A DNA stretch of 64,000 nucleotides, taken from the NCBI GenBank assembly GCA_038245295.1, contig JBBRSP010000009.1, forward strand, positions 168,241-232,240, in the 5' to 3' direction. Origin of the DNA: Candidatus Binatia bacterium (GTDB lineage: Bacteria; Desulfobacterota; Binatia; HRBIN30). The notes below the pieces were generated by a model that saw only the letters and a list, made by a program, of their open reading frames with translations, did no database searches and was not told the origin of the DNA. Below, piece by piece: positions 40,401 to 57,738 of this stretch (its first letter is position 1; the number at the start of each line of letters is the position of its first letter). The position numbers and the translations under genes were made by a program.

Positions 40401-40947
40401 GTTCGCCGAATGCGGCGAGTGCGGTGAGCTCGTCGTCGCTGAACGGCCGCACCTCGTGGCGGTACATGTGCAACCCGCCAACGCCGACGCCGTTGGCCGT
40501 GAGCGGCACGGAGGCATAGCTGCGCACGCGGGCAACGGTCACCAGTTCCTCGAAGTAGGCGATGCCCTTGGTCGCCTCGGCAAAATCGTCGACGTGGATC
40601 GCGCCGGATGGCGAAAGGGAAAAGCGCTCCGGCTCGGCCGAATCCCGCTTCACCCGCGTGCCGATGTACGGCGCCATCGCCGGCCCGTGCGAGGCCACGT
40701 AGCGGAGGAAGTCGCCCTCATCGAGCGTGATCGAACCGGCCTCTCCCCCGCACAGCTCGGCCGCCTTGGCGAGGATGCCATGGAGCACGGTCGTCAGGTC
40801 CCCGGGGTGGGCGCTGATCAGCCGCAGCGTCTCGGTCGTGGCCGAGAGCATGGCGCGGACGAGCTGCGAGCTCGACGAAGCTTTTCGGGTCGGACGCTGC
40901 CGCCGACCCGCCGGCCCCTTCTTATCTGGGGCGTCAGTGGCGCTCAT
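34453..40947 (-). CDS. Cytoplasmic hybrid histidine kinase: 9 GAF + HisKA + HATPase + 2 REC + Hpt
   Basis: Nine QAAIAxxNAxL GAF ends; [31 protein letters not shown]; two REC domains; AHTLKS Hpt. Probable start ATG 40947. Confidence 0.93.
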
Positions 40948-41067
40948 GCGGGAATGTGGATACGCCGTGCTGCTGCGGCGGTCAATCGTCAGTCGGACAG
41001 CCTCCAACGGCTTGGGGATCTCACGCAGAGTCGCAAAGGCGCAGAGAGAACACGAGGGCGTTTGCCC

Positions 41068-41163
41068 GGACACCCACCCTTGAGCGGCGTCGCTTATGTT
41101 GGCTCGCTGCGTAGTTGAGCGACCTCTGCGGGAAAGCGTTATCTTTGACGGGGGTGGGTGTCC
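41068..41163. repeat. Inverted pair of GGACACCCACC motifs (REPIN-like) at the BVMO truncation point
   Basis: GGACACCCACC at 41068-41078 and GGTGGGTGTCC at 41153-41163. Confidence 0.65.
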
Positions 41164-41176
41164 TCCTGGTGTCCTC

Positions 41177-42844
41177 TTCGTCGATGATCCGTATGTCGAG
41201 CCTGGGTTCACGCGCCCGCCGCTGACCGACGAAGTCGAGGTGGCCGTGATTGGCGGCGGCTTCGGCGGACTGCTGGTCGGGGCGCGACTGCGTCAGCTCG
41301 GCGTCAAGGACATCCGCGTCATCGAAAAGGGGGGCGACTTCGGCGGCACCTGGTACTGGAACCGATATCCAGGCGTGGCGTGCGACATCGAGTCGTACGT
41401 GTACATGCCGCTGCTTGAAGAGGTCGACTACATTCCCAGGGAGAAGTACAGCCGGGGATCCGAGATATTCGCTCACTGCAAGGCAATCGCCGAGAAGTTC
41501 GACCTCTACCGTAACGTTTGCTTCCAGACCGAAGTGACCGAGCTGCGATGGGACGCGCCCGGTTGTTGCTGGATCATCGCGACCAATCGCGGCGACGCCA
41601 TGAAGGCGCGGTTCGTCTGCTTGTCGAATGGCTTCCTACAAAAGCTGAAGCTGCCCGGCATCCCCGGAATCGAAACGTTCCAGGGGCATTCCTTCCACAC
41701 CAGCCGCTGGGACTATTCGTACACGGGCGGCGACTCGAACGGCAATCTGACAGGTCTCCACGGCAAGCGTGTTGGCATCATCGGCACCGGCGCGACGGCG
41801 GTGCAATGCATCCCTCACCTCGGTGCCGGCGCCTCTCACCTCTACGTCTTCCAGCGCACGCCGTCGTCCATCGACGTACGGGCCAACCGCCCGACGGATC
41901 CCGAATGGGCGAACCACCTCGAGCCCGGCTGGCACCAGAAGAGAATGGACAACTTCCAGATCCTCACCGCCGGCGGCTTCCAGGAAGAAGATCTGGTGAA
42001 CGACGGTTGGACGGACATCATGCGCAAATTGCTGTCGATGATGACGTCGACGGAACATTCCGACATCGGCCCGGAGACGCTGAGTCGAACCATGGAGATG
42101 GCCGACTTCCTCAAAATGGAGCAGATCCGGGCGCGTGTCGACGCGATCGTCAAGGACCCGGCAACGGCCGAGTCGCTAAAGCCCTACTACCGCCAGTTCT
42201 GCAAGCGCCCGTGCTTTCACGACGATTACCTGAAGACGTTCAACTAACCCAACGTCACGCTCGTCGATACCAACGGCAAGGGCGTTGAGCGCATCACGGA
42301 GAAGGGAGTCGTCGTCGATGGCAGGGAGTACGGACTCGATTGCCTCATCTATGCCACCGGCTTCGAAGTCGGGACCGACTATACGCGCCGTGCCGGCTAC
42401 CAGATCAACGGACGAGATGGCGTGACGTTGACGCAGAAGTGGAGCGACGGAGCGACGACGCTGCACGGCATCCACATCCACGGCTTCCCCAACTGCTTCA
42501 TGATGAGCATCGCCCAGTCCGGCTTCACCGTGAACTTTCCCTACCTGATCAACGAGCAGGCCAAGCACATCGCCTACGTCGTCGATCGCGCGCTCGAAAA
42601 GGGGCTGCGATCGCTCGAGGTCACGCAAGAGGCGGAAACCGAGTGGGTCGAAGCGGTCGTCGAGCGTTCGGGTCTGACCACCGACCTCAGCGAGAATTGC
42701 ACCCCAGGTTACTATAACAATGAAGGAATGCCCGGAAGAATCGGCCGGCAGAACGGTTTCTACTTCGGCGCACCGACGGAGTTCGTCGAAATCCTCGCGC
42801 AATGGCGAGCCGACGGTCGGTTGAAGGGTTTGGAATGCCGCTAG
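41177..42844 (+). pseudogene. Baeyer-Villiger monooxygenase pseudogene (in-frame TAA, N-terminus apparently lost)
   Basis: [29 protein letters not shown] fingerprint, GTGATA. TAA at 42245-42247 lies within KTFN*PNVTLVDT and the same frame continues (ATGF...CTPGYYNNEG) to 42844. Confidence 0.88.
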
Positions 42845-46554: not shown

Positions 46555-47192
46555 TCAAGCCTCGCCAGTCTGGTTTCCGCGCGGGTGTTGGCGGACGAAG
46601 GCCAGGCCGCGATTGCCGAAATGCCCGTGCCCTGCCATGCGCCGGGCCTGTTGGCTCAGCGCCCGGTCGAGGAGAAAGCCGCAGCGGGCCAGCGCTTCGA
46701 CCCAGTATTCCTCGGGCTGGCAGTTGACGTGGTGCCAACCCGGCTGACCCGGGGCGGCGTAGGTCATGAACACGTACTTGCGGCTGGAGGCAAAGGTGGC
46801 CAGAAAGTGGTCCGCGAAGCGCTCCTCGACGTGCTCGACGAACTCACAGCTCCACACCACGTCGAAGGTCCGCCGCGGGACGAACGGGCCGCGCACGAAG
46901 TCGTGTACGATATGTGATTCCGGAACGACACTGTCGCGCTTTGCCTGTGGACTTCCATCAACCGCGAGAACCTCGCAACCGGCATCACGAAAGAAGCGGG
47001 CGCAGTGACCTTCTCCACAGCCGACGTCGAGAAGCGTGCGTGCCCCGAGCTCGGCGACCATCCAGCGCCACATCTGCGGGTACCACGTGGCGGGATCGCC
47101 GTGTCGCAACGACGAAACCTCGGGGTCGGCGCGGATGTAACCGCCAAGGTGGCCTGCGTCGATGTTGGTTACGGGGGTGATGACCGAGTCAC
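46555..47192 (-). CDS. Class I SAM-dependent methyltransferase; the 5' end appears frameshifted
   Basis: LLDVGCGEG, VWSCEFVEHV, GWHHVNCQ. Upstream GHLGGYI...GDPATW is in frame but lacks a start; the coupled GTG 47192 is one base out of frame. Confidence 0.75.
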
Positions 47193-48916
47193 GCCGGCGC
47201 CCCGAGACCGACCGCGGCTTCCCACGCCGCCACCGTGCGCAGCCGTCCCAACCCGTACCGACCGAGGGTGCTCGGATCGCCGCCGACGTAGAACAACGCC
47301 TGGAGGCGGCGAAGCATTTCCTGCGTGCGCTCCGTCTGCCACCGAGTGCTTTTTGCTTCCCAGACCTTGTGCCGATTGCCGTCGGGATAGTTCGCGTAGT
47401 CGAGATGCCAGACCTGAATGTCGTCCGGCAGGTACATGTCGTAACCGTGTGTGAACGTGCGCAACGCGAGCGGCGCCTCGTGCCCCGCGTGGATCATCGC
47501 CGCGTCCTCCGGCACCTCGCGAATCCATGCCCCGTGGGTGAAGACGAAGTTGCAGCAGATGAGCCCGGTGCTCTGGTGACGGTCGGACTTACGCTGCGGG
47601 GACATCTGGATGTCAATCCAGCCGTCGGGCTCGATGCGCCTGCAGGTCAGCAAGGGAACGCCGTCGTACTCCGTGCCCGCCCACGGCAGAACGACGCGAC
47701 CCTGCGCATCGAAGGTGAAAGGGGGCGAGCTGGTGGTGAGCAGCGGCTTGCGTCCCGGCTTGCCTTCGAGTTGGTCGATGAGGTTCTCGTCCCAACCCGG
47801 CGCCAGATAGCTGTGCGAGTCGAGGAGCAGGTGATACTCCTCGCCGGCGTAGAGCTTCTGTATGTCGGCGCGAGCCCAGCCGTAGCCGAGACTGGCGTAG
47901 TACGGATAGCGGCGAATGCGGAAGCGTGGGTCGTCGCCATAGTCGTCGAGCTGCTCGTCCTCGTCGGCTTGCCAACAGATGCCGAAGGTCAAACGCTCCG
48001 GGTGTTGCGCTTGCCGGAGCAGGGAGTCGATCGTGAAGGGGAGGAACTGATCTCGGTAGGAGGCGATCGAAACGAAGATGCGCGGCCGAGCCGCTGGCTG
48101 GGGCGCGCGCGCCTTGAAGAAGCGTTGGTGGAACTCGAGGATGTGGTCGGCGCTCAAGCTGCGGAAATGGTAGTGGAAGGCGTTGGGCACCGGCCGATGC
48201 TCGTGCGGCGGCGCCTTCACATAGTCCACCGTGCCCTGTGGGCAGGGGAAAAAGATGTGGTCGGGGGTGAGCGGCCGTTGCTGCGCGATGTCCTCGAGGA
48301 AGGACGCCAGTCGAATCCGGCTCATGTGCGCCGCGATCCAATGTCCCATCGTGACATCGTCACGAAATCCGAAGGCGTTGCCTTCGATGATCTCGTTCCT
48401 GTGGCGCCCCAGCTCGCGCGCAACGTCGACCGACAGGATCATGGAGGCGCCGCTGACGAACGGCCCCGTCCCCGACACGTCTATCCCGATAGCGCCGGCC
48501 ACGACGCGCTGGGGAGACAGCGAATCTGCATAGCGGGCCAAGGTGTGCTGATCGACGTAACTAGCAGCACACACCGTGTAGATCAGGTCGTACCTGTCGG
48601 TTGCGGCGAGATGCGCGAAGGCGATCAGGCGTTTGCGTAAGATACAATCCACCTGCCGGCTCAACTGATCGGCGCAGCCGGCGATCAGCACGCCATCGAT
48701 CTCGCAGATACCGTCGTCCGCAACGACCGGTACCGCTCCACCAATGTGGCGCGATAGCACGTCGTACGCCTGTGGATCGCCGGGGTTGCCGTAGAGGTAG
48801 TAGATATCGAGGCCAGGCACCGTCGTACTGCCCCAGGTGCGCCGGATCGCCTCGATCAGCTCATCGTACGGGGGTGAAGCGCATGCGAGTACTACGATGG
48901 CGATGCGGTTCGACAT
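47189..48916 (-). CDS. Bifunctional glycosyltransferase: GT31-like N-domain plus GT60 (Skp1-hydroxyproline GlcNAc-transferase-like) C-domain
   Basis: N: AIRRTWG...FVSGASMILS...DDVTMG. C: IFVSIASYRD, PERLTFGICWQ, SLGYGWAR, EEYHLLLDSH, LRTFTHGYD. Confidence 0.78.
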   Translation of the reverse strand: MSNRIAIVVLACASPPYDELIEAIRRTWGSTTVPGLDIYYLYGNPGDPQAYDVLSRHIGGAVPVVADDGICEIDGVLIAGCADQLSRQVDCILRKRLIAFAHLAATDRYDLIYTVCAASYVDQHTLARYADSLSPQRVVAGAIGIDVSGTGPFVSGASMILSVDVARELGRHRNEIIEGNAFGFRDDVTMGHWIAAHMSRIRLASFLEDIAQQRPLTPDHIFFPCPQGTVDYVKAPPHEHRPVPNAFHYHFRSLSADHILEFHQRFFKARAPQPAARPRIFVSIASYRDQFLPFTIDSLLRQAQHPERLTFGICWQADEDEQLDDYGDDPRFRIRRYPYYASLGYGWARADIQKLYAGEEYHLLLDSHSYLAPGWDENLIDQLEGKPGRKPLLTTSSPPFTFDAQGRVVLPWAGTEYDGVPLLTCRRIEPDGWIDIQMSPQRKSDRHQSTGLICCNFVFTHGAWIREVPEDAAMIHAGHEAPLALRTFTHGYDMYLPDDIQVWHLDYANYPDGNRHKVWEAKSTRWQTERTQEMLRRLQALFYVGGDPSTLGRYGLGRLRTVAAWEAAVGLGAPA

Positions 48917-48974
48917 TCTGGTTGGGCTCACGGGCGCAAGAATGCCATCGACGGGGGAGCGGCGCTCGCCTCGC

Positions 48975-50114
48975 TCATGCCGGCTCCAGGTCCAGCGCTC
49001 CGACGTTGTGGAGCTGATCGATCACCGACTGGAGGCTGCCGCCCAAGGCGCCGGGCGCCAACTGGAAACGGTTTTCGAGTCGGCCCTGGAGGTCCGCCAG
49101 GTCGAGCTTACCGTCACAGAGCTCCCAAATGGCGGCCGCAGAGGGGTTTAGGGAGAGCGTGTCGGAGCGACCGGGTATCTCGAGCAGGGTGCGGTCGAGG
49201 ACGCGGCCGACACGCACGCCGGGACGCCGCCGCGGCCGCAGCATAGCGTGGTCGCCACCTGCCGCGCGCCGCGCGCAGTACTCTTCGAGCAGGGCAAGGA
49301 CCTCGTGTCCGCTTCCGGAGCTCGCGCGTCCGGGGTCGACGCTTGTCCACGGCTGGTAGAGATGCTGGTTCCACACACTGTCGCCGTCGGCCGACTCGAT
49401 AGGCTGACCGTAATGGATCAATACCGCCTGGCTTGGGCCCGCCCCCGTGTCGACGCCGAGATCGGTCACGGCGTGCGCGATACGAGCCTCGGCGGCGGCG
49501 ATCGCATAGGCCATGTCGGCAACGCGGTCGCTCTTGCCGTCGACTCCGGCCGCCATTTCCGCCCGGATGATGCTCATTAGCTCCAGCCACCTGGCAGCCA
49601 TCCGGCGCAAGTCGCTGGCGTGGATGAGCACCGGCAGGGTCACGGGCGGGAGCGCCAGCCTGCAGTCGACGCAGAAGTTCTCGAGGAACGCCAGGTTGGG
49701 CCCCAACCCGAAGTGCTCCGACCCTGATACCCCGCTGCCGTTGTCAGGCAAGGCCGGCCAGGCGGTCGCCCGCGCTTGCCCCGGCCCGACCTCGGTTTCC
49801 ACCGAAGCGCGGAACACGCTATCCGGCCGGACCAGCAGGATCGTACCGTCGATGCGCTCCGTGAACAGCCACTCGAGCAGCGCCGCGGCGGTGTTGTAGG
49901 GTGGGTAGCTGTCGCCGGTGTACGGGTGCGGCGACCAGCACGAGGTGGCAACGACACGCGCGAGGCGCTGGCGCGGGAGCGGCTCTCCCGGTGCGACGGC
50001 GGTCAAGCGGACCAACTCCCCCGGCTGCCGAACGCGGCCCCACGAGTACTCGAGGAGCTCGGAGCGCCACTGCGCCGCATCGTCGGCTATCGTGCAGAAG
50101 ACGGTGTAGATCAC
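48975..50114 (-). CDS. HPAT/SERGT (GT95/GT96)-like glycosyltransferase domain with C-terminal PqqD/RRE domain
   Basis: YTVF...QW...YSW..VRQPGELVRL...WSPHPYTGDSYPPYN...LEWL; C-terminal SLNPSAAAIWELCDG...QLHNVGAL. GTG 50114 overlaps the previous stop. Confidence 0.75.
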   Translation of the reverse strand: MIYTVFCTIADDAAQWRSELLEYSWGRVRQPGELVRLTAVAPGEPLPRQRLARVVATSCWSPHPYTGDSYPPYNTAAALLEWLFTERIDGTILLVRPDSVFRASVETEVGPGQARATAWPALPDNGSGVSGSEHFGLGPNLAFLENFCVDCRLALPPVTLPVLIHASDLRRMAARWLELMSIIRAEMAAGVDGKSDRVADMAYAIAAAEARIAHAVTDLGVDTGAGPSQAVLIHYGQPIESADGDSVWNQHLYQPWTSVDPGRASSGSGHEVLALLEEYCARRAAGGDHAMLRPRRRPGVRVGRVLDRTLLEIPGRSDTLSLNPSAAAIWELCDGKLDLADLQGRLENRFQLAPGALGGSLQSVIDQLHNVGALDLEPA

Positions 50115-51061
50115 CCGCCGCCTCCTGCTGCGACGGGAAGACCCACGAACTGAGGGGCGACCACACCACCGCGGAAATGGCCCCAGCCGAGGCGCGTGTC
50201 GGGATCGGGCTGGGCGGCGCGGTGTAACCACGTCGTGACGGCGAAACGACTGTCGGCAAACTCGCCGGACGGACAACGAACCGGCATCGCCTCGTGAAAC
50301 TCGGCGCTGCGGAAGACCACCATGCGATTGGAAATCGGCTCGACGCTCTCGAAGGTTGCGGCCGCTCGTCTCTCGCCGTCCTCCTCGATGCAGTCGTACA
50401 GTCGCAGCTCGCCCCCGGCGAAGCCGCGCGGCTGGCGGTGGACGTAGTAGATACACGACAGTTCTCGCGGGCACGTCGGCGACTCATCGGCATGCACCTT
50501 GTAGAACTGGCGGCTGCGCGCCGCGGTGAGCTGCGACTCCACCCCGCTCAAAGGTACAACAGGTACACCCAAGGTCCTGGCCAGCAGCGGATACCAGACG
50601 AGCAGCCGATTCTGCAGCATGCGCGCATGAGCCGAGTCGCCGAAGCGCGGAATCACGAGGTTCTGCCGGTGCCCTGCCGTGTCTCCGGCGACCGTGCCGG
50701 TCTCGAACTGTTCCTCCGATGCCACCGCAAGGACAAGCATGTCCGCGTGTTCCGCCGGGCTCAAGAAGTCATCGATGGCCATGTAGTGGGCGCGGCGAAT
50801 GATGATCGGTTGTGCCCCCCCCGTCGCGTGAGGCTGCACCAGCACCGGGGGTTCGCTGATCACCGAGACGACCTGGTCGGCGCGGAACGTGCACGCCACG
50901 GTTCCCTCTTGCAGCGGCAATTGGATCAGGTCGCGCGACGTCGGGGACGCCAGCGCCGCAAACAGGGCGCGCAGCTCGGCGGCGTCCTCCGCCAGTGCCA
51001 CCTCGTGGGTGTGGCCGCCGGCGAGCTGGACACGCAGTCGAATGGTGCGGACAGCGTTCAT
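50111..51061 (-). CDS. 2OG-Fe(II) oxygenase, prolyl-4-hydroxylase-like, with extra N-terminal domain
   Basis: FYKVHAD, SCIYYVH, GGELRLYD, PISNRMVVF, HEAMPV, RFAVTTW (HxD...H...R). Confidence 0.85.
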   Translation of the reverse strand: MNAVRTIRLRVQLAGGHTHEVALAEDAAELRALFAALASPTSRDLIQLPLQEGTVACTFRADQVVSVISEPPVLVQPHATGGAQPIIIRRAHYMAIDDFLSPAEHADMLVLAVASEEQFETGTVAGDTAGHRQNLVIPRFGDSAHARMLQNRLLVWYPLLARTLGVPVVPLSGVESQLTAARSRQFYKVHADESPTCPRELSCIYYVHRQPRGFAGGELRLYDCIEEDGERRAAATFESVEPISNRMVVFRSAEFHEAMPVRCPSGEFADSRFAVTTWLHRAAQPDPDTRLGWGHFRGGVVAPQFVGLPVAAGGGG

Positions 51062-53097
51062 GACCTCACCGTCGGATCGCCCGGATCGTCCAGATCGCGT
51101 ATTCCGTGCAGATCTTGCCAATCCGACAGTAAGCGCACAGCCTCCTGAGCATCGCTGAATCGCAGTTGCGCCGCCGGCCGACGTTCGGCGACCCGGCACA
51201 GGCGCTCGACGGCGCGATTACGGTCGATTTGGAAGTCGAGTGATGCAGTGATCAGTTCCGCAACCGCTGCCGCGGGTGACAGCGACACGAGAGCCGTGCG
51301 CCCGCACAGCTGCTGGACTGCAATCACGATGCTCGCCAGCGGAGTGGGCGTCGGGCGGCGGCCGCCGTCACCGGCGCTAGAGTCCTCGGCGCCGAACGGC
51401 AGCACCAGGTTGTCCTGGACGCGAATGCCGACCACGTCCGACTCGAGCAAGTCCCAGCCCGCGGACTGCATGGCACTGCCGATCGAGTCGTCGCCGTCGG
51501 CGAGATCGCCGACGATCACCAGTGCCTCCCCGGCGCGCGTAAAGGCAGCCCCGTGCAACCACGCATGCCGCGGCCGCGCTCGGGTCAGGATCGGTACGGC
51601 GAGGCGCTTCACAAGGCCGCCGAGCTGGGCTGCGTCCGCTACCTCGCCAAGGTGTTTCCCGTCGTGCACGACGACATGGTTGGTGGTGCCGGAGACGATT
51701 TCGAATTCGGTGATGACATTGCACGGTAGCTGCCCCGGACCGCCGTCGAAGCTTGCGCCGACCCGAGACAACACATGCGGAGTGCGGCTGCGGATGGCGA
51801 TCTGCAGGTTCTCAAAGGTCAAGTAGACGCTGTCCAGCGCTGCTGCTCCGGAGTGAGCGCGTATGACCAAGGGCGGGTGGGCGGATATATTCGCCGGCGC
51901 GCCGGTGGCGAGGCTCTGCGGGGTGAGGAAACTCTCGGGCCACTCGCGCATCCACGCCGGGTTGATGCGCTGGGTGACGCGATTCCAAGAATACGGCCCC
52001 TCGGACTCTTCGATCATGACGCCGCGATCGAGCCCGACGCAGTCGCTGATGGCGTGTCGACCACGCTGGAGCGAAACACCGGTGGCGGGTATCTCGTTCC
52101 ACAGAAACCGGAAGGGCTCGTGCTTGCCGCGATTACCCCGGTAACGCTGGATGAGCGAGGTGAACGTGCTGGTCATCGTTCCGATGAAGTTCTTCGACTC
52201 GGCGGCGACCAGTTGCGAGAGGTAGGCCAGGCTCAGGCTGTCTTGCTGCGGCAGCTGCGTGAAGTCGGCCGCGTAGGCATCGAGAATGTGCCAATCGATG
52301 AAGAAATGACGCGGATAGGCGAGCGTCAGCGGTCGGAAGAAGGGATCGTCACGCTCGTCGGTGACGATGACGAGGGGATCGTTGCGGTCGAAGATCTGGT
52401 CGAGCGCCTCGATCGCGTCCTCCGGCTGCCGGTCGAGCGTGGTGACTCCGTAGGTGACTTTGAAATCGCCGCGCCGCATATGCACGGCGTTGAACGAGCC
52501 GAGGTCCGCCGCCACTCGTTTGGCCAGATCGGCGAACGGTGGCTTGGGGCGCATGTTTTCGAGAAGGCGATGTACCGAACGCCGCAACTCGGCGTCGAGA
52601 TAGAACTGGTAAGAGTAGAAGCAAAGATTGTTGCGGCGCCGTGGTTGCGACGGATCGGTGCCCGGTACAAACGGACTCTCCGAGAGCCTCAGCACGGGGA
52701 ATCGGTCGAGGTCTTCGCCGACGGTGAGCCAGTGCTCGCGCCCCCGGGCGAAGCCGCGTGCCTGTGCAGAAGACAGGTCCAGGGTGCACGGGAAGTAGAA
52801 GGCCACATCGCCGAGAGAGTGGTCGGTGAGCTCGAGTGCCTCGAGACCCTCCAGATCGACCGACGCGCTGTCGGCCCACGGCACCGGCAGGTCGATGAGG
52901 TCGGTGATCCGGCTCGGGCGCTCGTTGCTCACCCGGCCGTTGTAGGAAACGATGTTGGCCGGAGGAGAGATGTTCCCTTCGAGCACCAGAAAGCGATTGG
53001 TCAGGTGCGCCAGGATCACGCCGATCTCGATCGACATGACGCCGTTGCTCAGTCCGGCGTTGCCGGACATGTAGTTGGTGTAAGAGAGATGTCTCAT
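51058..53097 (-). CDS. O-fucosyltransferase-like (GT-B) domain fused to a degenerate HprK-like domain
   Basis: GLSNGVM..LAHLTNRFLVL, AVHMRRGDF, IVTD, FIGTMTSTFT; C-terminal WLHGAAF...ALVIVG...GWDLLESDV. Confidence 0.75.
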   Translation of the reverse strand: MRHLSYTNYMSGNAGLSNGVMSIEIGVILAHLTNRFLVLEGNISPPANIVSYNGRVSNERPSRITDLIDLPVPWADSASVDLEGLEALELTDHSLGDVAFYFPCTLDLSSAQARGFARGREHWLTVGEDLDRFPVLRLSESPFVPGTDPSQPRRRNNLCFYSYQFYLDAELRRSVHRLLENMRPKPPFADLAKRVAADLGSFNAVHMRRGDFKVTYGVTTLDRQPEDAIEALDQIFDRNDPLVIVTDERDDPFFRPLTLAYPRHFFIDWHILDAYAADFTQLPQQDSLSLAYLSQLVAAESKNFIGTMTSTFTSLIQRYRGNRGKHEPFRFLWNEIPATGVSLQRGRHAISDCVGLDRGVMIEESEGPYSWNRVTQRINPAWMREWPESFLTPQSLATGAPANISAHPPLVIRAHSGAAALDSVYLTFENLQIAIRSRTPHVLSRVGASFDGGPGQLPCNVITEFEIVSGTTNHVVVHDGKHLGEVADAAQLGGLVKRLAVPILTRARPRHAWLHGAAFTRAGEALVIVGDLADGDDSIGSAMQSAGWDLLESDVVGIRVQDNLVLPFGAEDSSAGDGGRRPTPTPLASIVIAVQQLCGRTALVSLSPAAAVAELITASLDFQIDRNRAVERLCRVAERRPAAQLRFSDAQEAVRLLSDWQDLHGIRDLDDPGDPTVRS

Positions 53098-53699
53098 GGC
53101 GCTGATCGAGTCGGCGCGATCGGGTGGTAGTGGACGAAGATGGCAGCGTAGTAGTCGCCGTGCAGGGGATAAGGCCGCCCATGCGCGAGGCGGGTGCCCT
53201 CGTAGAAAACCAACTCGCCGGGTGCCAGATCGATCTGGCTCACCGTGTCATCGATGGTCTCGAGATGCAGCGGCCACGGGCTGTCGAGTGCGAAGTCGAT
53301 GCAGATTGCCGAGCTGATGACGTGGGTCGAGCGATCCACGTGAGTAGAGAGGAAGGTGCCACGCTGATAGACGCGTATGCCGTAACAATAGGAGACGGCC
53401 AGCCGCATGCCCGCCCAGGCCTCGTGCTCCGGCTGCAGATCCAGGGCGAGCTGTGCGTTGAACTCTTTGTCTTCATAGATGAGGGAAGGAATCGTACCGC
53501 GATCGGCATTGCCGATCTCATCGATCTTGCCCTCGGCACGAAAGCGGTCGGCGTTGATCTGCAGATGGTCGAGCAAGCGGGCGTGGACGGCAGGAGAGAG
53601 GGCGCCCCGGCAAAAGCCCAACCCCCGGTAGTGGGCCGCGGCTTGCATTTCACTCTGCCGTTGCCGGAGGAAGGCAGGGGCTTCGAGCTCGGGAATCAC
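53094..53699 (-). CDS. 2OG-Fe(II) oxygenase-like protein
   Basis: YGIRVY, STHVDR (HxD), WPL, LVFYEG, AHGRP, FVHY; 4-bp overlaps on both sides. Confidence 0.78.
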   Translation of the reverse strand: MIPELEAPAFLRQRQSEMQAAAHYRGLGFCRGALSPAVHARLLDHLQINADRFRAEGKIDEIGNADRGTIPSLIYEDKEFNAQLALDLQPEHEAWAGMRLAVSYCYGIRVYQRGTFLSTHVDRSTHVISSAICIDFALDSPWPLHLETIDDTVSQIDLAPGELVFYEGTRLAHGRPYPLHGDYYAAIFVHYHPIAPTRSAP

Positions 53700-55015
53700 G
53701 ACGCCTTCCTCCTGCCAACGGGACGCCGATGGTGCAGCCGGTTGCGGGCGTCCAGGGCCAGGTCGAAGAAGCGCCGCTCGAGATCGCTCGACGCCCGCGC
53801 CCGGTAGCTCTCGAGATCGGCGCGCAAGAGGTCACTTTGGGCGAAGAGGTGTTTGTGCCATTCCGAGTTTCGAAACGGGCCGCCGGCGCCGTCGTTGACG
53901 TCGCAGTAGTAGTGGTAGAAGGAACCGTCCGGGATCGTCTCCTGCTGCGGCGGCAGCACGGCGAACTGGGGGGTGTCCAACAACTCGTAGTCGATGCCGT
54001 TGGGCGTCAGCGCCATGGCGAAGCACGCCATCTCCGCCACCCAGGTGGCCTGCCCCGGAAGGTCCAGGACCTTGCCCAGGAGGAACAGGATCTGTGCAGA
54101 GCGGAAGCAGTCGCGAATGACCTTCTGGTTGCGCACCGTTTGGCCGGTGACGAACACGGTCACACCGCCTGGCTTGAGCGGCGTTTCGCAGCCGATCGAT
54201 GCCAGCAGCTTGTTCAGGTCGATACCGCGGCCGCACGACAAGCCGCTCATGAAAGGCTGTTCGCCGATCATGGCGTTCCGAGCGAGCGCGTTGCCGCTTG
54301 GAAACAGGTCTTCGCGCAGATTGCCGTAGAGGAAGATATCGGTGTCCATGAGGCACACGACGTCGTCGGCTTCGACGTAGGGGGCGATCGCATGGAGCGC
54401 CTCGACGCGGTTCAGTGCCACGTGGCCGCCGCGGTTCTCCGAGAAGTCGATGTCATGGCTGCGCCCGTGGTTGGTCCCCGTGAGCGCTTGCACCCCGTAG
54501 ACGTTCAAGAGACGGGTGAGCTGCGGGGAGAACGAGGTGTGATCGTTGCACACGACCACCGTGATGTCCCACCCGAGGGGCACCTGGCCTACGAGCGACT
54601 CGAAAAGAATCGCCAACTGCCAATGAAAATAAGCGCGGTCTTCAATGCCGAATACAAACCGAACTGGTGGGCGGCCGGCCACCTCCGCGGCGAGGACGGG
54701 GCTGGAGGCATCGGCACGGCCCGGGAGTGCCGCGGCGCCGGTTTCGATCAGGTTGAAATTGCGAAACGCCAGTAAGGCAGCGGCAACGTCGGCGAGAACA
54801 TCAACCTCCGCTCCCGCATACTGCGCCCGTAACTCCGCAAGCATGCCGGGAAGCGTGTGGGTCCCGTCGCAGAGTTTCCAGATCGCCGCCCCGGATTCGT
54901 TCAACGCATAGGCCCGGCTCCCCTCCGGGAGCAGCAGCACTATCTCGTTGGCAACTTCAAAGGCCTTGATGTCGGAACACCGTCTCGGGCGCTGGGTACG
55001 TGCCAGATCGGTCAC
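53696..55015 (-). CDS. N-terminal PqqD/RRE domain fused to an HPAT/SERGT-like (GT-A) glycosyltransferase domain
   Basis: AYALNESGAAIWKLCDGTHTL...FRNFNLIE; then FVFGIEDRAYFHWQ...ALNRVEAL...LMDTD (DxD)...WVAEMACF...HY. Confidence 0.78.
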   Translation of the reverse strand: MTDLARTQRPRRCSDIKAFEVANEIVLLLPEGSRAYALNESGAAIWKLCDGTHTLPGMLAELRAQYAGAEVDVLADVAAALLAFRNFNLIETGAAALPGRADASSPVLAAEVAGRPPVRFVFGIEDRAYFHWQLAILFESLVGQVPLGWDITVVVCNDHTSFSPQLTRLLNVYGVQALTGTNHGRSHDIDFSENRGGHVALNRVEALHAIAPYVEADDVVCLMDTDIFLYGNLREDLFPSGNALARNAMIGEQPFMSGLSCGRGIDLNKLLASIGCETPLKPGGVTVFVTGQTVRNQKVIRDCFRSAQILFLLGKVLDLPGQATWVAEMACFAMALTPNGIDYELLDTPQFAVLPPQQETIPDGSFYHYYCDVNDGAGGPFRNSEWHKHLFAQSDLLRADLESYRARASSDLERRFFDLALDARNRLHHRRPVGRRKAS

Positions 55016-55024
55016 TCGTTCCGC

Positions 55025-55510
55025 TTACTTCTTTTCGTCCTCTTCTCGGCCTTTCGAGGGCTCGACGTGCTCGTCGTTGGCTGCGGTTGCGTTCTTCGCG
55101 CGGCGCCGCACGGCAGCCGCACCGACGCCGGCCAGACCAGCCGACAAGGCGGCGAGACCACCGGCCGTCAAGGCCGGAGCTTTGACCATCGGAGCCATCG
55201 TCGGGGCCGGCGCCCTCGTCGGCGCCATCATCGTCGGCTCCATCATCGGCGCCATGGTCGGCGGCATGGTCGGCGGCACTTGACCGTGCGCGGTTCGCGC
55301 GCCAATGGCCGCACCAAACGGGATCGATAGGATCACAGGTGCTACCCAGGTGCTGAGTGCCGTTCGGCGTGTGATCGGCCTGGTCAACGCCGGCTGTGAA
55401 GCGGCGGACACACCGTGCTCGGAGTCGTCGCGCCCAGCGAGTTGGCGGCGCAGTTCCTCGATCTCCGCCAGAAGCTGTTTCTTTGACTTGTCGTTGTCGC
55501 CTGACGCCAT
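55025..55510 (-). CDS. Putative RiPP-like precursor: Tat-type leader, Pro/Thr/Met repeat core, C-terminal IPTL-CTERM-like anchor
   Basis: GAGGAGG RBS; ITRRTALSTWVAPVILSIP...TAHG|QVPPTMPPTMAPMMEPTMMAPTRAPAPTMAPMVK-APALTAGGLAALSAGLAGVGAAAVRRR; first gene of the operon. Confidence 0.75.
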   Translation of the reverse strand: MASGDNDKSKKQLLAEIEELRRQLAGRDDSEHGVSAASQPALTRPITRRTALSTWVAPVILSIPFGAAIGARTAHGQVPPTMPPTMAPMMEPTMMAPTRAPAPTMAPMVKAPALTAGGLAALSAGLAGVGAAAVRRRAKNATAANDEHVEPSKGREEDEKK

Positions 55511-55651: not shown

Positions 55652-56692
55652 ATGTCCAGTCCACTGATCTTTGTCGCCATCGCGGCCTACAGCGACCCCG
55701 AGTTGCCGCGCACGCTGCGCGACGCGCTCGAGCAGGCACGTTGGCCGGATCGCCTTCGCTTCGGGATTTGCTGGCAAGCCGATCCGACAGACGCGCTGTG
55801 CCTCGACGAATTTCGTTCCGACGCGCGCTTCCGCATCATCGACCGGACCGTCGCCGAGAGCGCGGGCGGGCCATGGGCGCGCAATCGCGCTCAGTCGCTC
55901 TGGCGCGGCGAAGCCTATACGCTGCAGGTCGACTCGCACATGAAATTCGAGCCAGAGTGGGACTCGAAGCTCATCGAAATGCTGGCGGCGCTGCCGAGCG
56001 CCAAGCCGCTGCTGAGCATGAACGCGCCGCTCTTTTGGTTTGACGAAAATGGCGGGCTGCAGCGACGCTTCGACATGGGCGTGCCGACGACCCGGGTGCG
56101 CGGCTGGGAGGCGTCGAGCGGCTGGGCCCCCTGGTTCGATTTCGGCCCGCCGAATCGCCAAACACCCGGCCGCACCCGCTTCGTGAGCGGCGCCTTCGTC
56201 TTTACACGCGGCGAGTGGAACGTCGAAGTACCCCAGGATCCGGACCACTACTATTGGGGCGAAGAGTTCAGCGTCACGGTGCGTTCCTTCACCTGGGGCT
56301 ACGACCTCTTTCTGCCGACGGAGGTCGTCGCCTGGCACCTGATGCACAGAACCGCCCCCCGGCGGCATTGGGAAAAGGGGGAAACGGTCGTTCAACGCCG
56401 CAACGCCGTCGCCTTCGAGCGCCTGCGGCGCCTCGTCTACAGTGCCGAGGGACACTGGCTCGGTCCGTACGGCCTGGGGCGAGTTCGCAACTTGCGTGAT
56501 TACGAAATCTACGCCGGCTTCGATCTGTCCCGCAAGCGCGCTCATCCCGACGTCTTCACGGGCGCCAATCCCGCTCCGGTGACGATCCGCCACGCCGAGG
56601 ATTGGAACTCCTGCCTGACATGGGAGGAAGCGAAACGCCGCGGTCTCGATCGACCCGGCGCCGGGCAGGAACCCACCGGAGAGGCCGGCTAA
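55652..56692 (+). CDS. GT60-like ([Skp1]-hydroxyproline GlcNAc-transferase family) glycosyltransferase
   Basis: IFVAIAAYSDPEL, PDRLRFGICWQ, SAGGPWAR, GEAYTLQVDSH, YWGEE, RSFTWGYD; divergent from the precursor. Confidence 0.85.
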   Translation: MSSPLIFVAIAAYSDPELPRTLRDALEQARWPDRLRFGICWQADPTDALCLDEFRSDARFRIIDRTVAESAGGPWARNRAQSLWRGEAYTLQVDSHMKFEPEWDSKLIEMLAALPSAKPLLSMNAPLFWFDENGGLQRRFDMGVPTTRVRGWEASSGWAPWFDFGPPNRQTPGRTRFVSGAFVFTRGEWNVEVPQDPDHYYWGEEFSVTVRSFTWGYDLFLPTEVVAWHLMHRTAPRRHWEKGETVVQRRNAVAFERLRRLVYSAEGHWLGPYGLGRVRNLRDYEIYAGFDLSRKRAHPDVFTGANPAPVTIRHAEDWNSCLTWEEAKRRGLDRPGAGQEPTGEAG

Positions 56693-57738
56693 CGCTCCAT
56701 GAGATAGCGGTCCAATTGACCGATACGGCTGGTGCCGTATTTGGCGCCGTACCAGGCAGCGGTTCTGCGTACTCCCTCCGCCAGGCTCATCTGCGGCGTC
56801 CAACCGAGCTGCTGGCGGGATTTAGCGAGGTCTGCGGCGCGGCTCTTCACGCCGACGGGTTTGTCGAGTTGCTTGTCGATTTGCATCGGCTGCCAGTCGA
56901 CGGCCCGGAAGATCTCATCCAGCAGTTGCAGGATGGTATGGTGTTGGTCGGTGCCGATGTTGATGACATCGAAGCTCGAAAGCCGCGCACCCGCCAAAGC
57001 CAGGCCCGTGCAGGTGTCCTGCACGTAGGTGAAGTTGCGCGTCTGGAGACCGTTGCCCCAGATGGGGAAGGGGTCCAGACGCGCCATGGCCTTGGCGATG
57101 AGGGCGACCACCGCATGGCTCTCGTTCTCGCGTTCGCCGTAGGCGGTGAAGACACGACAGGCCACGGCGCTGAGCCCATGCTGCTTGACGAAGGCGCGCA
57201 GTTGCAGCTCGCCCATGAGCTTGGCCCAGCCATATTCGCCGTCTGCGAACGCCTTGCCCGGTTCGTCGAAGTTGGCGTCGCTTTCCTTCAGCAGCAGGCG
57301 CTCCGAGTCGCAGGCCTGCAAATGGGTGGGGTAGACGCACGCCGAACTGGCGAACACGATCTTCTCGACGGCGGCGGCCGCGGCGGCCGCGAATACCGTA
57401 TGGTCGAGCAGCATGTTGTTGGTGCACTCGACCGGATGCGTTTCGATGTAACCGCGTCCGCCGTGCATGGCCGCCAGGTGAAAAACGATTTCATGTCCGC
57501 CGGCCGCCTGCCGGGCCATCTCCGCAGAACGCAGGTCGCCCTGCAAGAAACGAATGTCGTGGATTACGTCGGCCAGGTTCTCCCGTGAGCCGCTCGACAG
57601 GTCGTCGGCGACCGTGACCCGCGCGCCGGCCCGCAAGAGCAACTCGGTGAGGTGGCTGCCGATGAACGAGGCGCCGCCGGTCACCAGTACGGTGCGGCCG
57701 CGATAGAAGCCGTCGAATTCGGGGTGCGGTGTTCCCAT
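56689..57738 (-). CDS. NAD-dependent epimerase, GDP-mannose 3,5-epimerase-like
   Basis: VTGGASFIGSH, HLAAMHGGRGYI, FASSACVYP, LKESDA, YGWAK, GVKSR. Confidence 0.8.
   Translation of the reverse strand: MGTPHPEFDGFYRGRTVLVTGGASFIGSHLTELLLRAGARVTVADDLSSGSRENLADVIHDIRFLQGDLRSAEMARQAAGGHEIVFHLAAMHGGRGYIETHPVECTNNMLLDHTVFAAAAAAAVEKIVFASSACVYPTHLQACDSERLLLKESDANFDEPGKAFADGEYGWAKLMGELQLRAFVKQHGLSAVACRVFTAYGERENESHAVVALIAKAMARLDPFPIWGNGLQTRNFTYVQDTCTGLALAGARLSSFDVINIGTDQHHTILQLLDEIFRAVDWQPMQIDKQLDKPVGVKSRAADLAKSRQQLGWTPQMSLAEGVRRTAAWYGAKYGTSRIGQLDRYLMER

What the first reader, a model, noticed from the sequence alone, without database searches (positions are those of the whole stretch)
48975..50114. 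Plant SERGT1/HPAT-like glycosyltransferase domain fused to an RRE, with a degenerate DxD
YTVF...QW...YSW..VRQPGELVRL...SCWSPHPYTGDSYPPYN...LLEWL closely parallels, from memory, plant peptidyl-serine alpha-galactosyltransferase (HTLF...DWQ...HSF..SGQPGPITRL...SWSRHPKTGDWYPAINKP...WL). Where the DxD is expected the sequence reads LLVRPD, so it may be an inactive scaffold or substrate-delivery subunit. It carries a C-terminal PqqD domain.
Basis: partly seen in the sequence, partly recalled or inferred. Interest (0 to 1): 0.8.

Follow-up and report, generated by a model that had tools for sequence, protein, structure and literature searches.

The report
Leader-guided plant-type protein glycosyltransferase
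A bacterial enzyme related to the plant enzymes that put sugars on cell-wall proteins is fused to a peptide-docking domain and sits in an operon that probably hydroxylates and sugar-coats a proline/threonine-repeat protein, although its usual metal-binding site is gone.

Summary
Window 48975..50114 (minus strand) encodes a 379-aa protein. Residues 1-288 form a GT-A glycosyltransferase domain homologous to the Pfam HPAT family (PF23452, the plant/algal HPAT and SGT1 kind): profile-profile probability 100%, E 1.3e-58. Residues 292-379 are a PqqD-type RiPP recognition element. At the family's D-[PA]-D column the protein reads R-P-D.

The loss is clade-wide. D96, D98 and H234 are kept together in 66 of 72 non-RRE relatives but in only 3 of 17 RRE-fused ones. 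Q30, H63, D68, H165, D168, R175 and E209 stay nearly invariant.

The gene ends a translationally coupled five-gene core: an RRE-GT, two P4H-like 2OG oxygenases, an O-FucT-like GT and the target. Flanking it are two GT60-like GTs and a conserved 161-aa protein with an N-terminal helix, an RR/hydrophobic segment and xxPT repeats.

Best reading (about 0.5): a leader-guided, probably metal-independent glycosyltransferase in a bacterial pathway that glycosylates hydroxyproline and/or threonine. Main rival (about 0.3): a non-catalytic, RRE-bearing adaptor for the adjacent GT60. My searches found no description in print.

The parts
48975..50114 (-). Target gene, 379 aa: HPAT/SGT1-like GT-A domain plus C-terminal PqqD/RRE
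49251..50114 (-). GT-A glycosyltransferase domain (residues 1-288), GT8/GT6-like fold
   Evidence: AF2 model pLDDT 92.6, pTM 0.89. Foldseek top hits are GT6 at E about 1e-7. VIA-align: glycogenin 1zcu Z 15.3, Skp1 GlaT 6mw8 Z 15.1, BoGT6a Z 14.7, LgtC Z 14.4. hhalign to PF23452-positive proteins E 1.3e-58.
49821..49829 (-). R96-P97-D98, at the family's D-x-D column
   Evidence: In the 106-sequence family, position 96 is E 66, D 24, G 8, A 5, R 2, N 1. Position 98 is T 28, D 22, H 17, N 11 and others.
49488..49490 (-). E209 of the AAAE motif, invariant in 106 of 106 family members; candidate catalytic-pocket residue (inferred)
48978..49241 (-). PqqD-type RiPP recognition element (residues 292-379)
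50111..51061 (-). P4H-like 2OG-Fe(II) oxygenase (316 aa from the ATG at 51061; ATGA overlap with the gene before it, GTGA overlap with the target)
   Evidence: Pfam 2OG-FeII_Oxy_3 E 6e-16. Best PDB sequence match is 6t8m 'Prolyl 4-hydroxylase subunit alpha', E 4.7e-7. Junctions. A homologue is present in 28 of 30 loci.
51058..53097 (-). 679-aa O-fucosyltransferase-like GT with an extra C-terminal region
   Evidence: Pfam O-FucT E 4e-6, below the cut-off. Residues 509-568 resemble HprK-related kinase A, E 5.8e-6, far below the cut-off. Present in 27 of 30 loci.
53094..53699 (-). 201-aa probable 2OG-Fe(II) oxygenase (no Pfam hit)
   Evidence: Invariant H120, D122 and H173 in 25 homologues. Language-model neighbours are named prolyl 4-hydroxylase, scores 0.92-0.94, a lead only. 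Present in 26 of 30 loci.
53696..55015 (-). 439-aa second RRE-bearing GT: N-terminal PqqD plus a GT-A domain with invariant D224-T-D226
   Evidence: Present in 24 of 30 loci.
55025..55510 (-). 161-aa candidate substrate: conserved N-terminal helix, TRR plus hydrophobic segment, xxPT repeats, C-terminal hydrophobic stretch followed by RRR
   Evidence: tblastn finds a homologue in 18 of 30 loci. Two more were read directly upstream of the RRE-GT in L016 and L018.
55652..56692 (+). GT60-like glycosyltransferase (Pfam GlcNAc PF11397)
   Evidence: E 3.5e-45. Present in 21 of 30 loci.
47189..48931 (-). 580-aa protein 43 nt downstream of the target: unassigned N-terminal domain plus a second GT60-like domain
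   Evidence: PF11397 E 3e-41 at residues 337-576. The C-half orthologue lies directly downstream of the target in 17 of 24 loci. The N-half is a separate gene in L005, L015, L018, L020 and L028.
56689..57738 (-). NAD-dependent sugar epimerase/dehydratase
   Evidence: Pfam Epimerase E 7e-42. Present in 15 of 30 loci.
46555..47109 (-). SAM-dependent methyltransferase
   Evidence: Present in 8 of 30 loci.

Best explanation
The gene encodes a two-domain enzyme with no signal peptide or membrane anchor. Its N-terminal domain is a GT-A glycosyltransferase of the HPAT/SGT1 superfamily, with a GT8/GT6-like fold (the retaining type). Its C-terminal domain is a PqqD-type RiPP recognition element.

The gene is the last of five translationally coupled genes. 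Together with two GT60-like enzymes, a sugar epimerase/dehydratase and a methyltransferase, they act on the 161-aa protein encoded directly upstream.

Proposed course (inferred, none of it shown):
1. The RRE docks on the conserved N-terminal part of the substrate.
2. The two P4H-like oxygenases hydroxylate prolines in the xxPT repeats.
3. The GT domain transfers a sugar from a nucleotide sugar to hydroxyproline or to the neighbouring threonine. The plant models are HPAT, which acts on Hyp, and SGT1, which acts on Ser only beside Hyp.
4. The other GTs start or extend further glycans.
5. The modified protein is exported through its internal RR/hydrophobic segment.

The canonical metal ligands are lost across this clade while the rest of the pocket is kept. 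I therefore take the enzyme to be active without the usual DxD-bound metal, as in bacterial GT6.
For: Homology and fold.

RRE.

Operon: four consecutive 4-nt overlaps, GTGA, ATGA, ATGA, GTGA. Synteny in 30 loci from several phyla: oxygenase 28 of 30, O-FucT-like 27 of 30, second oxygenase 26 of 30, RRE-GT 24 of 30.

Substrate: in 21 homologues L13, R48, R49, W55, P58, L61, P88 and P92 are invariant, followed by PT repeats of period 4.

Functional linkage by fusion in relatives: HPAT+PqqD+2OG, HPAT+GT60+2OG and HPAT+O-FucT+GT60.

Pocket retained: 35 of 50 columns conserved in 70 non-RRE relatives are kept in the 106-sequence family. Q30, G32, P161, W176 and E209 are kept in 106 of 106; H165 in 104, D68 in 104, D168 in 99.

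Pattern at the motif: position 96 is acidic in 90 of 106 and position 98 is free. This parallels BoGT6a, where the first Asn of NXN binds the ribose and the second contacts nothing (passages).

RRE-leader docking: complex prediction gave weak support, score 0.37 against a best control of 0.02. The mark was reached by 116 of 157 solved complexes and 2 of 215 mismatched pairs. At 0.60 or under, however, it was reached by only 18 of those 157 solved complexes and by both of the mismatches that passed. The runs agree in at least 84% of contacts and the partner pLDDT is at least 51. I used my own alignments, so these counts hold only roughly. RRE-leader complexes have been solved, so the pass may come from memory.

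Literature passages: SGT1 activity needs Hyp, and HPATs are related to GT8. GT60 Gnt1 acts on Hyp of Skp1, and a GT60 of T. cruzi is a polypeptide GlcNAc-transferase.
Against: No biochemical datum exists for any member.

The lost positions are variable rather than re-fixed: position 98 is T 28, D 22, H 17, N 11; position 234 is D 60, H 13; position 250 is P 37, A 18, K 13. That looks like relaxed constraint, not a new conserved solution such as NXN.

Further strongly conserved family residues are also lost: W196, M200, K250, Y13, and N74 in part.

The window protein's R96 is rare, found in 2 of 106.

The full triad survives only in the three loci (L016, L018, L021) that lack a GT60 paralogue directly downstream. 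All 17 loci with that paralogue lack it. This fits an adaptor role, although it may reflect a single evolutionary event.

The complex prediction is only weak support.

Proline hydroxylation, the acceptor residue, the sugar and export are all inferred. The RR pair is K-R in the two alphaproteobacterial substrates read, and NCBIfam gave no Tat-signal hit.
Confidence: 0.5

Rival explanations
1. Pseudo-glycosyltransferase adaptor. The GT-A domain has lost catalysis. The protein serves as an RRE-bearing scaffold that holds the leader, and perhaps the repeat region, and presents the substrate to a partner without an RRE. The likeliest partner is the GT60-like enzyme encoded directly downstream (47189..48931).
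For: D96, D98 and H234 are kept together in 66 of 72 non-RRE relatives but in 3 of 17 RRE-fused ones (Fisher p 3e-7 for DxD, 1e-8 for H234). K250, conserved at 94% in the canonical family, survives in 13 of 106. The lost positions are variable. All 17 loci with a GT60 paralogue directly downstream lack the triad. The 3 loci with an intact triad have no such downstream gene. Neither GT60-like protein has an RRE.
Against: A pure scaffold has no need for the nucleotide-sugar pocket, yet Q30-P31-G32, H63, D68, Y73, H165, D168 and E209 stay invariant or nearly so. The metal-independent GT-A BoGT6a shows that loss of DxD need not end catalysis. The correlation with the downstream GT60 may be one event in one lineage (tree). 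A second RRE-bearing GT already sits in the operon, so delivery alone would not need this protein.
Confidence: 0.3
2. The enzyme is active but the PT-repeat protein is not its acceptor. In this reading the RRE has another role, such as protein-protein contact within the enzyme complex or regulation, and the GT acts on a glycan intermediate or another molecule.
For: No experiment links the enzyme to the protein. tblastn found the PT-repeat gene in only 18 of 30 loci. The docking prediction is only weak support.
Against: The PT-repeat gene lies directly upstream of the coupled operon in the window. It was also found by eye in two of the loci that tblastn missed. Several loci are cut by contig ends. 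The N-terminal region of the substrate is far better conserved than its repeats, as expected of a recognition leader. Both RRE-bearing proteins match leader-binding B1/PqqD proteins.
Confidence: 0.1

Closest known systems
Plant and green-algal HPAT1-3 (CAZy GT95) and SGT1/SERGT1 (GT96), the initiating glycosyltransferases of extensins
   Same: Homologous catalytic domain (Pfam PF23452; hhalign probability 100%, E 1.3e-58). Shared motifs: QPG..RL, HP.TGD.Y.PYN, P..IH..DL, AAAE..H and HY. Like them it is associated with prolyl hydroxylases and with Pro-rich repeat substrates. Eukaryotic relatives were reached by the profile: Raphidocelis, Mesostigma, Coleochaete, Micromonas and Vermistella.
   Different: Bacterial. 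No N-terminal membrane anchor (the model begins with a strand at residue 2). Carries an RRE. D-x-D reads R-P-D, and the clade has lost the D, D, H triad. It lies in a separate clade from the eukaryotic sequences. Acceptor and sugar are unknown.
Skp1 hydroxyproline glycosylation pathway of Dictyostelium and Toxoplasma (PhyA, Gnt1/GT60, PgtA, GlaT)
   Same: Cytoplasmic logic: a P4H, then a GT60 enzyme on Hyp, then further GTs including a fucosyltransferase-type step (passages). Two PF11397 proteins and two P4H-like oxygenases sit in the operon. The Skp1 alpha-galactosyltransferase 6mw8 is among the three best structural matches of the target, Z 15.1.
   Different: Skp1 has one target proline and no leader or RRE. 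Here the acceptor is a repeat protein with a recognition leader and an export-type segment. That PF11397 corresponds to GT60 is recalled, not tested.
BoGT6a, the metal-independent bacterial GT6 with NXN in place of DXD
   Same: GT-A retaining-type fold (Z 14.7; Foldseek). The metal-binding motif is replaced. The first motif position is still constrained and the last is dispensable.
   Different: In GT6 the replacement is a fixed NXN. Here the positions vary widely and further conserved residues (H234, K250) are lost too, so retained activity is not assured.
RRE-dependent RiPP enzymes (PqqD, lasso B1 proteins such as TfuB1 and TbiB1), and the RRE-GT2 fusions listed by RRE-Finder work
   Same: PqqD-type wHTH domain. 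A precursor gene with a conserved N-terminal recognition region lies beside the enzymes. One 2025 paper notes RREs fused to PF00535 glycosyltransferases (passage).
   Different: The fused enzyme is of the HPAT kind, not GT2. The substrate is a 126-331-aa repeat protein rather than a short peptide. No leader protease was seen in the cluster.

Membership tests
Pfam PF23452 HPAT superfamily (CAZy GT95/GT96 kind) | Significant sequence or profile match to the family | tested here: met
   The window protein alone is below the Pfam cut-off (16.4 against 23.9 bits). But 58 of 106 family members match at E <= 0.01. Of 63 scanned relatives found by the GT-domain profile, 58 match at E <= 0.001, 55 of them above the cut-off. 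hhalign probability 100%, E 1.3e-58.
Pfam PF23452 HPAT superfamily (CAZy GT95/GT96 kind) | GT-A fold of the GT8/GT6-like (retaining) type | tested here: met
   Model pLDDT 92.6. GT6 at Foldseek E about 1e-7. Glycogenin Z 15.3, LgtC Z 14.4, BoGT6a Z 14.7.
Pfam PF23452 HPAT superfamily (CAZy GT95/GT96 kind) | D-x-D motif after the fourth strand (D 97%, D 99% in 70 non-RRE relatives) | tested here: not met
   R-P-D in the window. Strict DxD in 4 of 106 family members.
Pfam PF23452 HPAT superfamily (CAZy GT95/GT96 kind) | Conserved His of the HY motif (96% in non-RRE relatives), a putative third metal ligand (recalled from GT8) | tested here: inconclusive
   Present in the window protein (H234) but in only 13 of 106 family members. 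Its role as a ligand was not tested.
Pfam PF23452 HPAT superfamily (CAZy GT95/GT96 kind) | Transfer of arabinose to Hyp (GT95) or galactose to Ser beside Hyp (GT96) | not testable with these tools
   No assay was possible. The tree places the protein apart from the eukaryotic sequences.
PqqD / RiPP recognition element (PF05402) | Profile match above the curated cut-off | tested here: met
   37.8 against 23.4 bits. 106 of 106 family members match.
PqqD / RiPP recognition element (PF05402) | Three-stranded sheet plus winged helix-turn-helix fold, as in leader-bound B1 proteins | tested here: met
   6jx3_B Z 12.1, rmsd 2.1 A over 85 residues. 5v1u_A Z 11.9. 5sxy Z 10.1.
PqqD / RiPP recognition element (PF05402) | Binds the leader of a neighbouring precursor | tested here: inconclusive
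   Complex prediction gave weak support: 0.37 against a best control of 0.02. The mark was reached by 116 of 157 solved complexes and 2 of 215 mismatched pairs, but at 0.60 or under by only 18 of the 157 and by both of those mismatches.
RiPP-type leader-guided modification pathway | Precursor gene beside the enzymes, with a conserved recognition region and a variable core | tested here: met
RiPP-type leader-guided modification pathway | Leader removal by a dedicated protease, giving a small peptide product | not tested
   No protease was noted among the conserved genes. An AxA-like site follows the hydrophobic segment. The product is probably a protein, not a peptide.
Metal-independent GT-A of the BoGT6a type | DXD replaced by a conserved uncharged motif, with basic residues taking over diphosphate binding | tested here: inconclusive
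   The motif is variable, not fixed. R175 is invariant in the family, but its position relative to the donor site could not be measured because no coordinates were available.

The most novel reading that the evidence does not exclude
This operon is a bacterial, leader-guided counterpart of eukaryotic hydroxyproline O-glycosylation, and possibly its evolutionary source. It unites in one transcription unit the enzyme kinds that plants use on extensins (P4H, HPAT/SGT1) and that protists use on Skp1 (P4H, GT60, fucosyltransferase-type). They would build an exported, extensin- or mucin-like glycoprotein from a PT-repeat precursor recognised through RRE domains. Within the operon, the target has dispensed with the DxD-bound metal. 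It either works metal-free or has become the RRE-bearing adaptor of the adjacent GT60.
Probability: 0.4. Interest if true: 0.85.

Novelty: new variant of a known kind. Interest (0 to 1): 0.72.

Why it matters
Hydroxyproline O-glycosylation is treated as a eukaryotic speciality: plant cell-wall proteins and peptide hormones, and protist Skp1. Its initiating enzymes, GT95 and GT96, have no solved structure; one deep-learning study predicts a GT-A-like fold for GT95 and a novel fold for GT96 (passages).

A soluble bacterial homologue with a confident model, a defined neighbouring substrate and its own docking domain would be a tractable system for their mechanism and acceptor recognition. It would also extend RRE-guided chemistry from short peptides to repeat glycoproteins.

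The clade-wide loss of the metal triad offers a natural experiment on how GT-A enzymes become metal-independent or turn into pseudo-enzymes.

The cluster is patchy. Among relatives searched it was found in 1 of 40 genomes, and in 0 of 24 of the same family. Yet it occurs across several phyla, which points to an accessory, mobile trait.

Tried and rejected
- The 499-aa ORF (48975..50474) is rejected as the gene. Its first 120 residues overlap the upstream gene in another frame, and no homologue has them.
- PDB sequence searches with the protein and with its family profile found only PqqD-type chains for the C-terminus and nothing for the GT domain.
- NCBIfam gave only sub-threshold PqqD hits for the target, and nothing for the substrate, either oxygenase, or the GT60-like proteins.
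- hhalign of the target's GT profile against the family of the second RRE-GT gave probability 4.3%, E 0.0097. The motifs were colinear, with DxD falling on the invariant DTD. Only 3 of 23 of that family hit HPAT weakly, best E 0.054. Sequence paralogy is therefore not shown. Both models merely share GT6 as the best Foldseek match.
- PDB searches for the 201-aa oxygenase, as single sequence and as profile, and for the GT60-like protein gave nothing meaningful.
- tblastn of the GT domain against 50,697 phage records: no match.
- Own genome: one substrate gene and one HPAT-like gene. The other hits were PT-rich stretches inside large proteins.
- Earlier notes of this scan: none near this place or by sequence.
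- Literature: no paper combined an RRE with glycosyltransferase, hydroxyproline and 2OG (25 papers held 3 of the 4 terms, 15 were listed, none of the listed held 'RiPP recognition element'). None combined HPAT, bacterial homologs, hydroxyproline and PqqD (0 papers). None combined the glycosylated-RiPP and prolyl-hydroxylase terms (0 papers). The RRE survey papers mention only GT2 fusions. These searches cover open-access papers and bioRxiv only.
- I could not measure distances in the model (R96 to D200, R175 to the donor site), because no coordinates are given out.
Full report
THE GENE. On the minus strand, 48975..50114 encodes 379 residues. The start is a GTG whose last two bases, with the next A, form the stop of the upstream gene (GTGA). 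A longer ORF reaching 50474 exists. All 24 homologues taken from public genomes begin at the aligned M-I-x-T-V-F, so the extension is not part of the gene.

TWO DOMAINS. Pfam finds PqqD at residues 314-373 (E 2.4e-9, above the cut-off). It finds only a sub-threshold match to PF23452 'Hydroxyproline O-arabinosyltransferase family' (E 0.0064, 16.4 against 23.9 bits). An AlphaFold2 model built on 106 homologues is confident (pLDDT 92.6, pTM 0.89).

Residues 1-288 form a GT-A fold. Foldseek ranks the GT6 enzymes first (ABO transferases, alpha3GalT, BoGT6a; E about 1e-7, TM about 0.5 on the target's length). A Foldseek-independent scan of 48,161 chains ranks GT8 and GT6 at the top:
- glycogenin 1zcu, Z 15.3, rmsd 3.5 A over 219 residues
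- the Skp1 alpha-galactosyltransferase 6mw8, Z 15.1
- BoGT6a, Z 14.7
- LgtC, Z 14.4

Residues 292-376 superpose on leader-bound lasso B1 proteins (6jx3_B, Z 12.1, rmsd 2.1 A; 5v1u_A, Z 11.9) and on PqqD (Z 10.1).

IS IT OF THE HPAT/SGT1 KIND? Yes, at superfamily level.

A word-indexed search gave 133 relatives at E <= 0.001 among 8,000 scored candidates. I aligned 106 of the 120 listed and left out 14 shorter or partial ones. All 106 carry PqqD, and 58 of 106 match PF23452 at E <= 0.01 (best 4e-11).

A profile of the GT domain alone was built from 25 sequences cut by DNA reference from the window and 24 loci. It found 692 representatives at E <= 0.001 among 1.84 billion (264 at <= 1e-10, 78 at <= 1e-30). 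I scanned 63 of the 150 listed against Pfam. Of these, 58 match PF23452 at E <= 0.001, 55 of them above the cut-off; 5 do not match.

Some of these relatives are eukaryotic: Raphidocelis, Mesostigma, Coleochaete, Micromonas and Vermistella. One metagenomic protein is named peptidyl serine alpha-galactosyltransferase by its source.

Profile-profile comparison of the GT-domain alignment with 18 PF23452-positive proteins gives probability 100%, E 1.3e-58, over 267 columns.

THE DxD. In the multiple alignment and in hhalign, the family's D-[PA]-D falls on R96-P97-D98. This is not a quirk of one protein.
- In the 106-sequence family, position 96 is E 66, D 24, G 8, A 5, R 2, N 1.
- Position 98 is T 28, D 22, H 17, N 11, S 8 and others.
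- Strict DxD occurs in 4 of 106.

I then looked at 89 representatives with a near-complete GT domain, drawn from 151 sequences scanned with a local HMM.
- Of the 72 without an RRE, 68 keep DxD, 67 keep the His of the HY motif (position 234), and 66 keep both.
- Of the 17 with an RRE, the figures are 6, 4 and 3.
- Fisher p is 3e-7 for DxD and 1e-8 for H234, but the sequences are related, so these values overstate.

In a FastTree tree (midpoint root, supports not examined) the degenerate proteins form one clade of 16 tips that includes the window protein. Three RRE-fused proteins with an intact triad sit elsewhere.

Of 50 columns conserved at 60% or more in 70 non-RRE relatives, 35 are kept in the RRE family. 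The kept columns include Q30, G32, P161, W176 and E209 (106 of 106), H165 (104), D68 (104) and D168 (99). The columns lost are D96, D98, H234, K250, W196, M200, Y13, Q117, partly N74 and K75, and a few minor ones.

That D96, D98 and H234 are the metal ligands is an inference from GT8 and GT6 enzymes. The GT6 part was read; the GT8 histidine is recalled.

The window lineage is an outlier even in its own family: R96 together with R-V-A-D, where the family has E96 and D-A-D-[RK]. This apparent charge swap is seen in 2 of 106 sequences, which count as one event. I could not test whether these positions touch.

THE SURROUNDINGS. Five genes are joined by 4-nt overlaps (GTGA, ATGA, ATGA, GTGA):
- the 439-aa protein (N-terminal PqqD, then a GT-A domain)
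- a 201-aa protein
- a 679-aa O-FucT-like protein
- a 2OG-Fe(II) oxygenase (316 aa from the ATG at 51061)
- the target

Upstream, 9 nt before the first of these, lies a 161-aa gene. Downstream, after 43 nt, lies a 580-aa protein whose C-half is PF11397 'Glycosyltransferase (GlcNAc)'. A second PF11397 protein, an epimerase/dehydratase and a methyltransferase lie nearby.

The oxygenase's best solved relative is 6t8m, 'Prolyl 4-hydroxylase subunit alpha' (E 4.7e-7). The 201-aa protein has no Pfam match, but H120, D122 and H173 are invariant in 25 homologues. Its language-model neighbours are named prolyl 4-hydroxylase (0.92-0.94, a lead only).

The 439-aa protein has an invariant D224-T-D226. Its model (pLDDT 77) also has GT6 as best Foldseek match. 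Sequence kinship to the target is not shown.

CONSERVATION OF THE CLUSTER. One scan of 185,579 species genomes gave 48 loci. Thirty of them hold the GT part of a target homologue. They come from Binatia, Polyangia and other Myxococcota, Nitrotoga, Lysobacterales, Halieaceae, Thiohalocapsa, Acidobacteriota and Alphaproteobacteria, and from two isolates (Tepidamorphus sp., Elongatibacter sediminis).

Some of these 30 loci are cut by contig ends. tblastn finds in them:
- the oxygenase in 28
- the O-FucT-like protein in 27
- the 201-aa protein in 26
- the RRE-GT in 24
- the downstream-type GT60 in 22
- the other GT60 in 21
- the 161-aa protein in 18
- the epimerase in 15
- the methyltransferase in 8

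L014 and L030 hold a target relative alone. Among 40 relatives of the window's own genome, the GT domain was found in 1, and in 0 of 24 of the same family. The cluster is thus patchy within a lineage and spread across phyla.

THE CANDIDATE SUBSTRATE. The 21 aligned homologues (126-331 aa) share four features:
- an N-terminal helix (consensus K-T-K-x-x-L-L-A-E-I-E-A-L-R-x-Q-L)
- a segment P-x-T-R-R-x-x-L-x-x-W-V-A-P-V-I-L-S-x-P
- an A-x-A-like site
- a variable run of x-x-P-T repeats (2 to 47 PT dipeptides)

C-termini differ. Some have a hydrophobic stretch followed by basic residues, as in the window. Others end in I-P-V-E-L-x-E-F-E-V-x. The alphaproteobacterial loci that tblastn missed have the same kind of gene directly upstream of their RRE-GT, but with K-R in place of R-R. 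The own genome has one such gene.

A docking prediction of the target's RRE (residues 286-379) with substrate residues 1-72 gave weak support: score 0.37, best control 0.02. The mark was reached by 116 of 157 solved complexes and 2 of 215 mismatched pairs. At 0.60 or under it was reached by only 18 of those solved complexes and by both of those mismatches. The runs agree in at least 84% of contacts, and the partner pLDDT is at least 51. I used my own alignments, and RRE-leader complexes are solved, so memory may contribute.

HOW IT MOST LIKELY WORKS.

Shown here:
- the domain make-up and the fold
- the family relationship
- the clade-wide loss of the triad with the rest of the pocket retained
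- the coupled operon and its conservation
- the architecture of the neighbouring repeat protein

Inferred:
- The RRE docks on the N-terminal region.
- The oxygenases make hydroxyproline.
- The GT domain adds a sugar to Hyp or to the adjacent Thr.
- The other GTs start or extend further chains.
- Modification is cytoplasmic, because no enzyme here shows a signal peptide or anchor in what I read, and export follows.

Passages read support the analogies. SGT1 needs Hyp next to its serine, and HPATs are related to GT8. Gnt1 (GT60) puts GlcNAc on Hyp of Skp1 only after PhyA has acted, and GT60 also holds a polypeptide GlcNAc-transferase of T. cruzi. BoGT6a works without metal, with NXN in place of DXD; only the first motif residue touches the donor.

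Fusion proteins among the relatives tie the enzyme kinds together: HPAT+PqqD+2OG, HPAT+GT60+2OG, HPAT+O-FucT+GT60 and O-FucT+HPAT.

ACTIVE OR NOT? I lean to active (about 0.5 against 0.3), for two reasons. The pocket residues that a scaffold would not need are kept. The pattern at the motif, first position constrained and last position free, is the one seen in a proven metal-independent GT-A.

The other side is real. The lost positions did not settle on a new motif, and K250 and the W-x-x-E-M motif are gone as well. The full triad survives only in the three loci (L016, L018, L021) that have no GT60 gene directly downstream. L039 keeps D-P-D but has T at position 234. All 17 loci with such a downstream gene lack the triad. 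That may be one historical event, but it is what an adaptor for the neighbouring GT60 would look like.

KNOWN OR NEW? My searches found no description of an RRE fused to an HPAT-kind enzyme, nor of a bacterial operon of this make-up. They cover open-access papers and bioRxiv only.

Two earlier notes of this scan, from other genomes, describe related things. One is an RRE-fused, RR-bearing, proline-rich precursor beside P4H and HPAT-type genes (e1-5149439). The other is a phage protein joining HPAT, O-FucT and GT60 domains after a double P4H (e1-5965041). They are unchecked AI notes. I saw the same fusion architecture among unnamed representatives and the same HprK-related-A similarity, but I did not check those loci.

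I rate the finding a new variant of known kinds (RRE-guided modification; HPAT/SGT1-type protein glycosylation), with interest 0.72.

Noticed in passing
window 51058..53097 (-), residues 509-568: The C-terminal part of the O-FucT-like protein resembles NCBIfam TIGR04352 'HprK-related kinase A' (E 5.8e-6, 25.6 bits against a cut-off of 200). Where a P-loop would be expected, the sequence reads G-D-L-A-D-G-D-D-S-I-G-S, without G-K-S/T. It may be a non-catalytic, precursor-binding module.
   Followed up: no
window 47189..48931 (-), residues 9-275; L005 13030-13818, L015 10256-11098, L018 1589-2380, L020 12303-13103, L028 12382-13173: The N-terminal half of the 580-aa protein has no Pfam match and is a separate gene in five other loci, so the window protein is a fusion. 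Its R-R-T-W-G string recalls GT31/Fringe-type enzymes; this is recalled, not tested.
   Followed up: partly
L001, L002, L009, L017, L019, L025, L027, L033, L035 (substrate genes): Substrate C-termini come in at least three kinds. One is a hydrophobic stretch followed by basic residues. One is a terminal I-P-V-E-L-x-E-F-E-V-x with no hydrophobic stretch. The Polyangia have a G-A-A-P-D-S-R...L-G-S-A-R-A ending. Repeat units differ from genome to genome (SPTQEPTR, FPTA, NPTN, TPTE).
   Followed up: partly
L008 (8997-12030 and 14256-21000), L010 (4164-4481 and 17728-18093): Some genomes hold two copies: L008 has a second, nearly complete cluster, and L010 has two substrate genes. In L026 and L035 the target homologue is matched in several pieces in different frames, so it may be frameshifted.
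   Followed up: no
representatives P0137, P0141, P0151, P0201, P0205, P0230, P0124, P0131, P0125: Relatives of the GT domain occur fused to GT60, O-FucT, 2OG oxygenase, radical SAM, FkbM or other methyltransferases, DUF268 and Nucleotid_trans domains. Some of these fusions also carry PqqD.
   Followed up: partly
window 49512..49829 (-), residues 96 and 197-200: The window lineage has R96 and R-V-A-D where the family has E96 and D-A-D-[RK]. This is an apparent charge swap, seen in 2 of 106 sequences. Whether the two sites touch could not be measured.
   Followed up: partly
window 34453..41211 (-): A 2,252-aa ORF with many repeated sensor-like units followed by histidine-kinase, receiver and HPt-like parts, judged from its translation only.
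   Followed up: no
window 57960..59177 (+): A 405-aa protein with a C-terminal OmpA domain (E 3e-23) lies just beyond the cluster. It was not found in the related loci by the searches made.
   Followed up: no
G000 and 40 relatives: The GT domain was found in only 1 of 40 related genomes searched (0 of 24 of the same family), while close homologues occur in other phyla. The cluster behaves as an accessory, transferable unit.
   Followed up: partly
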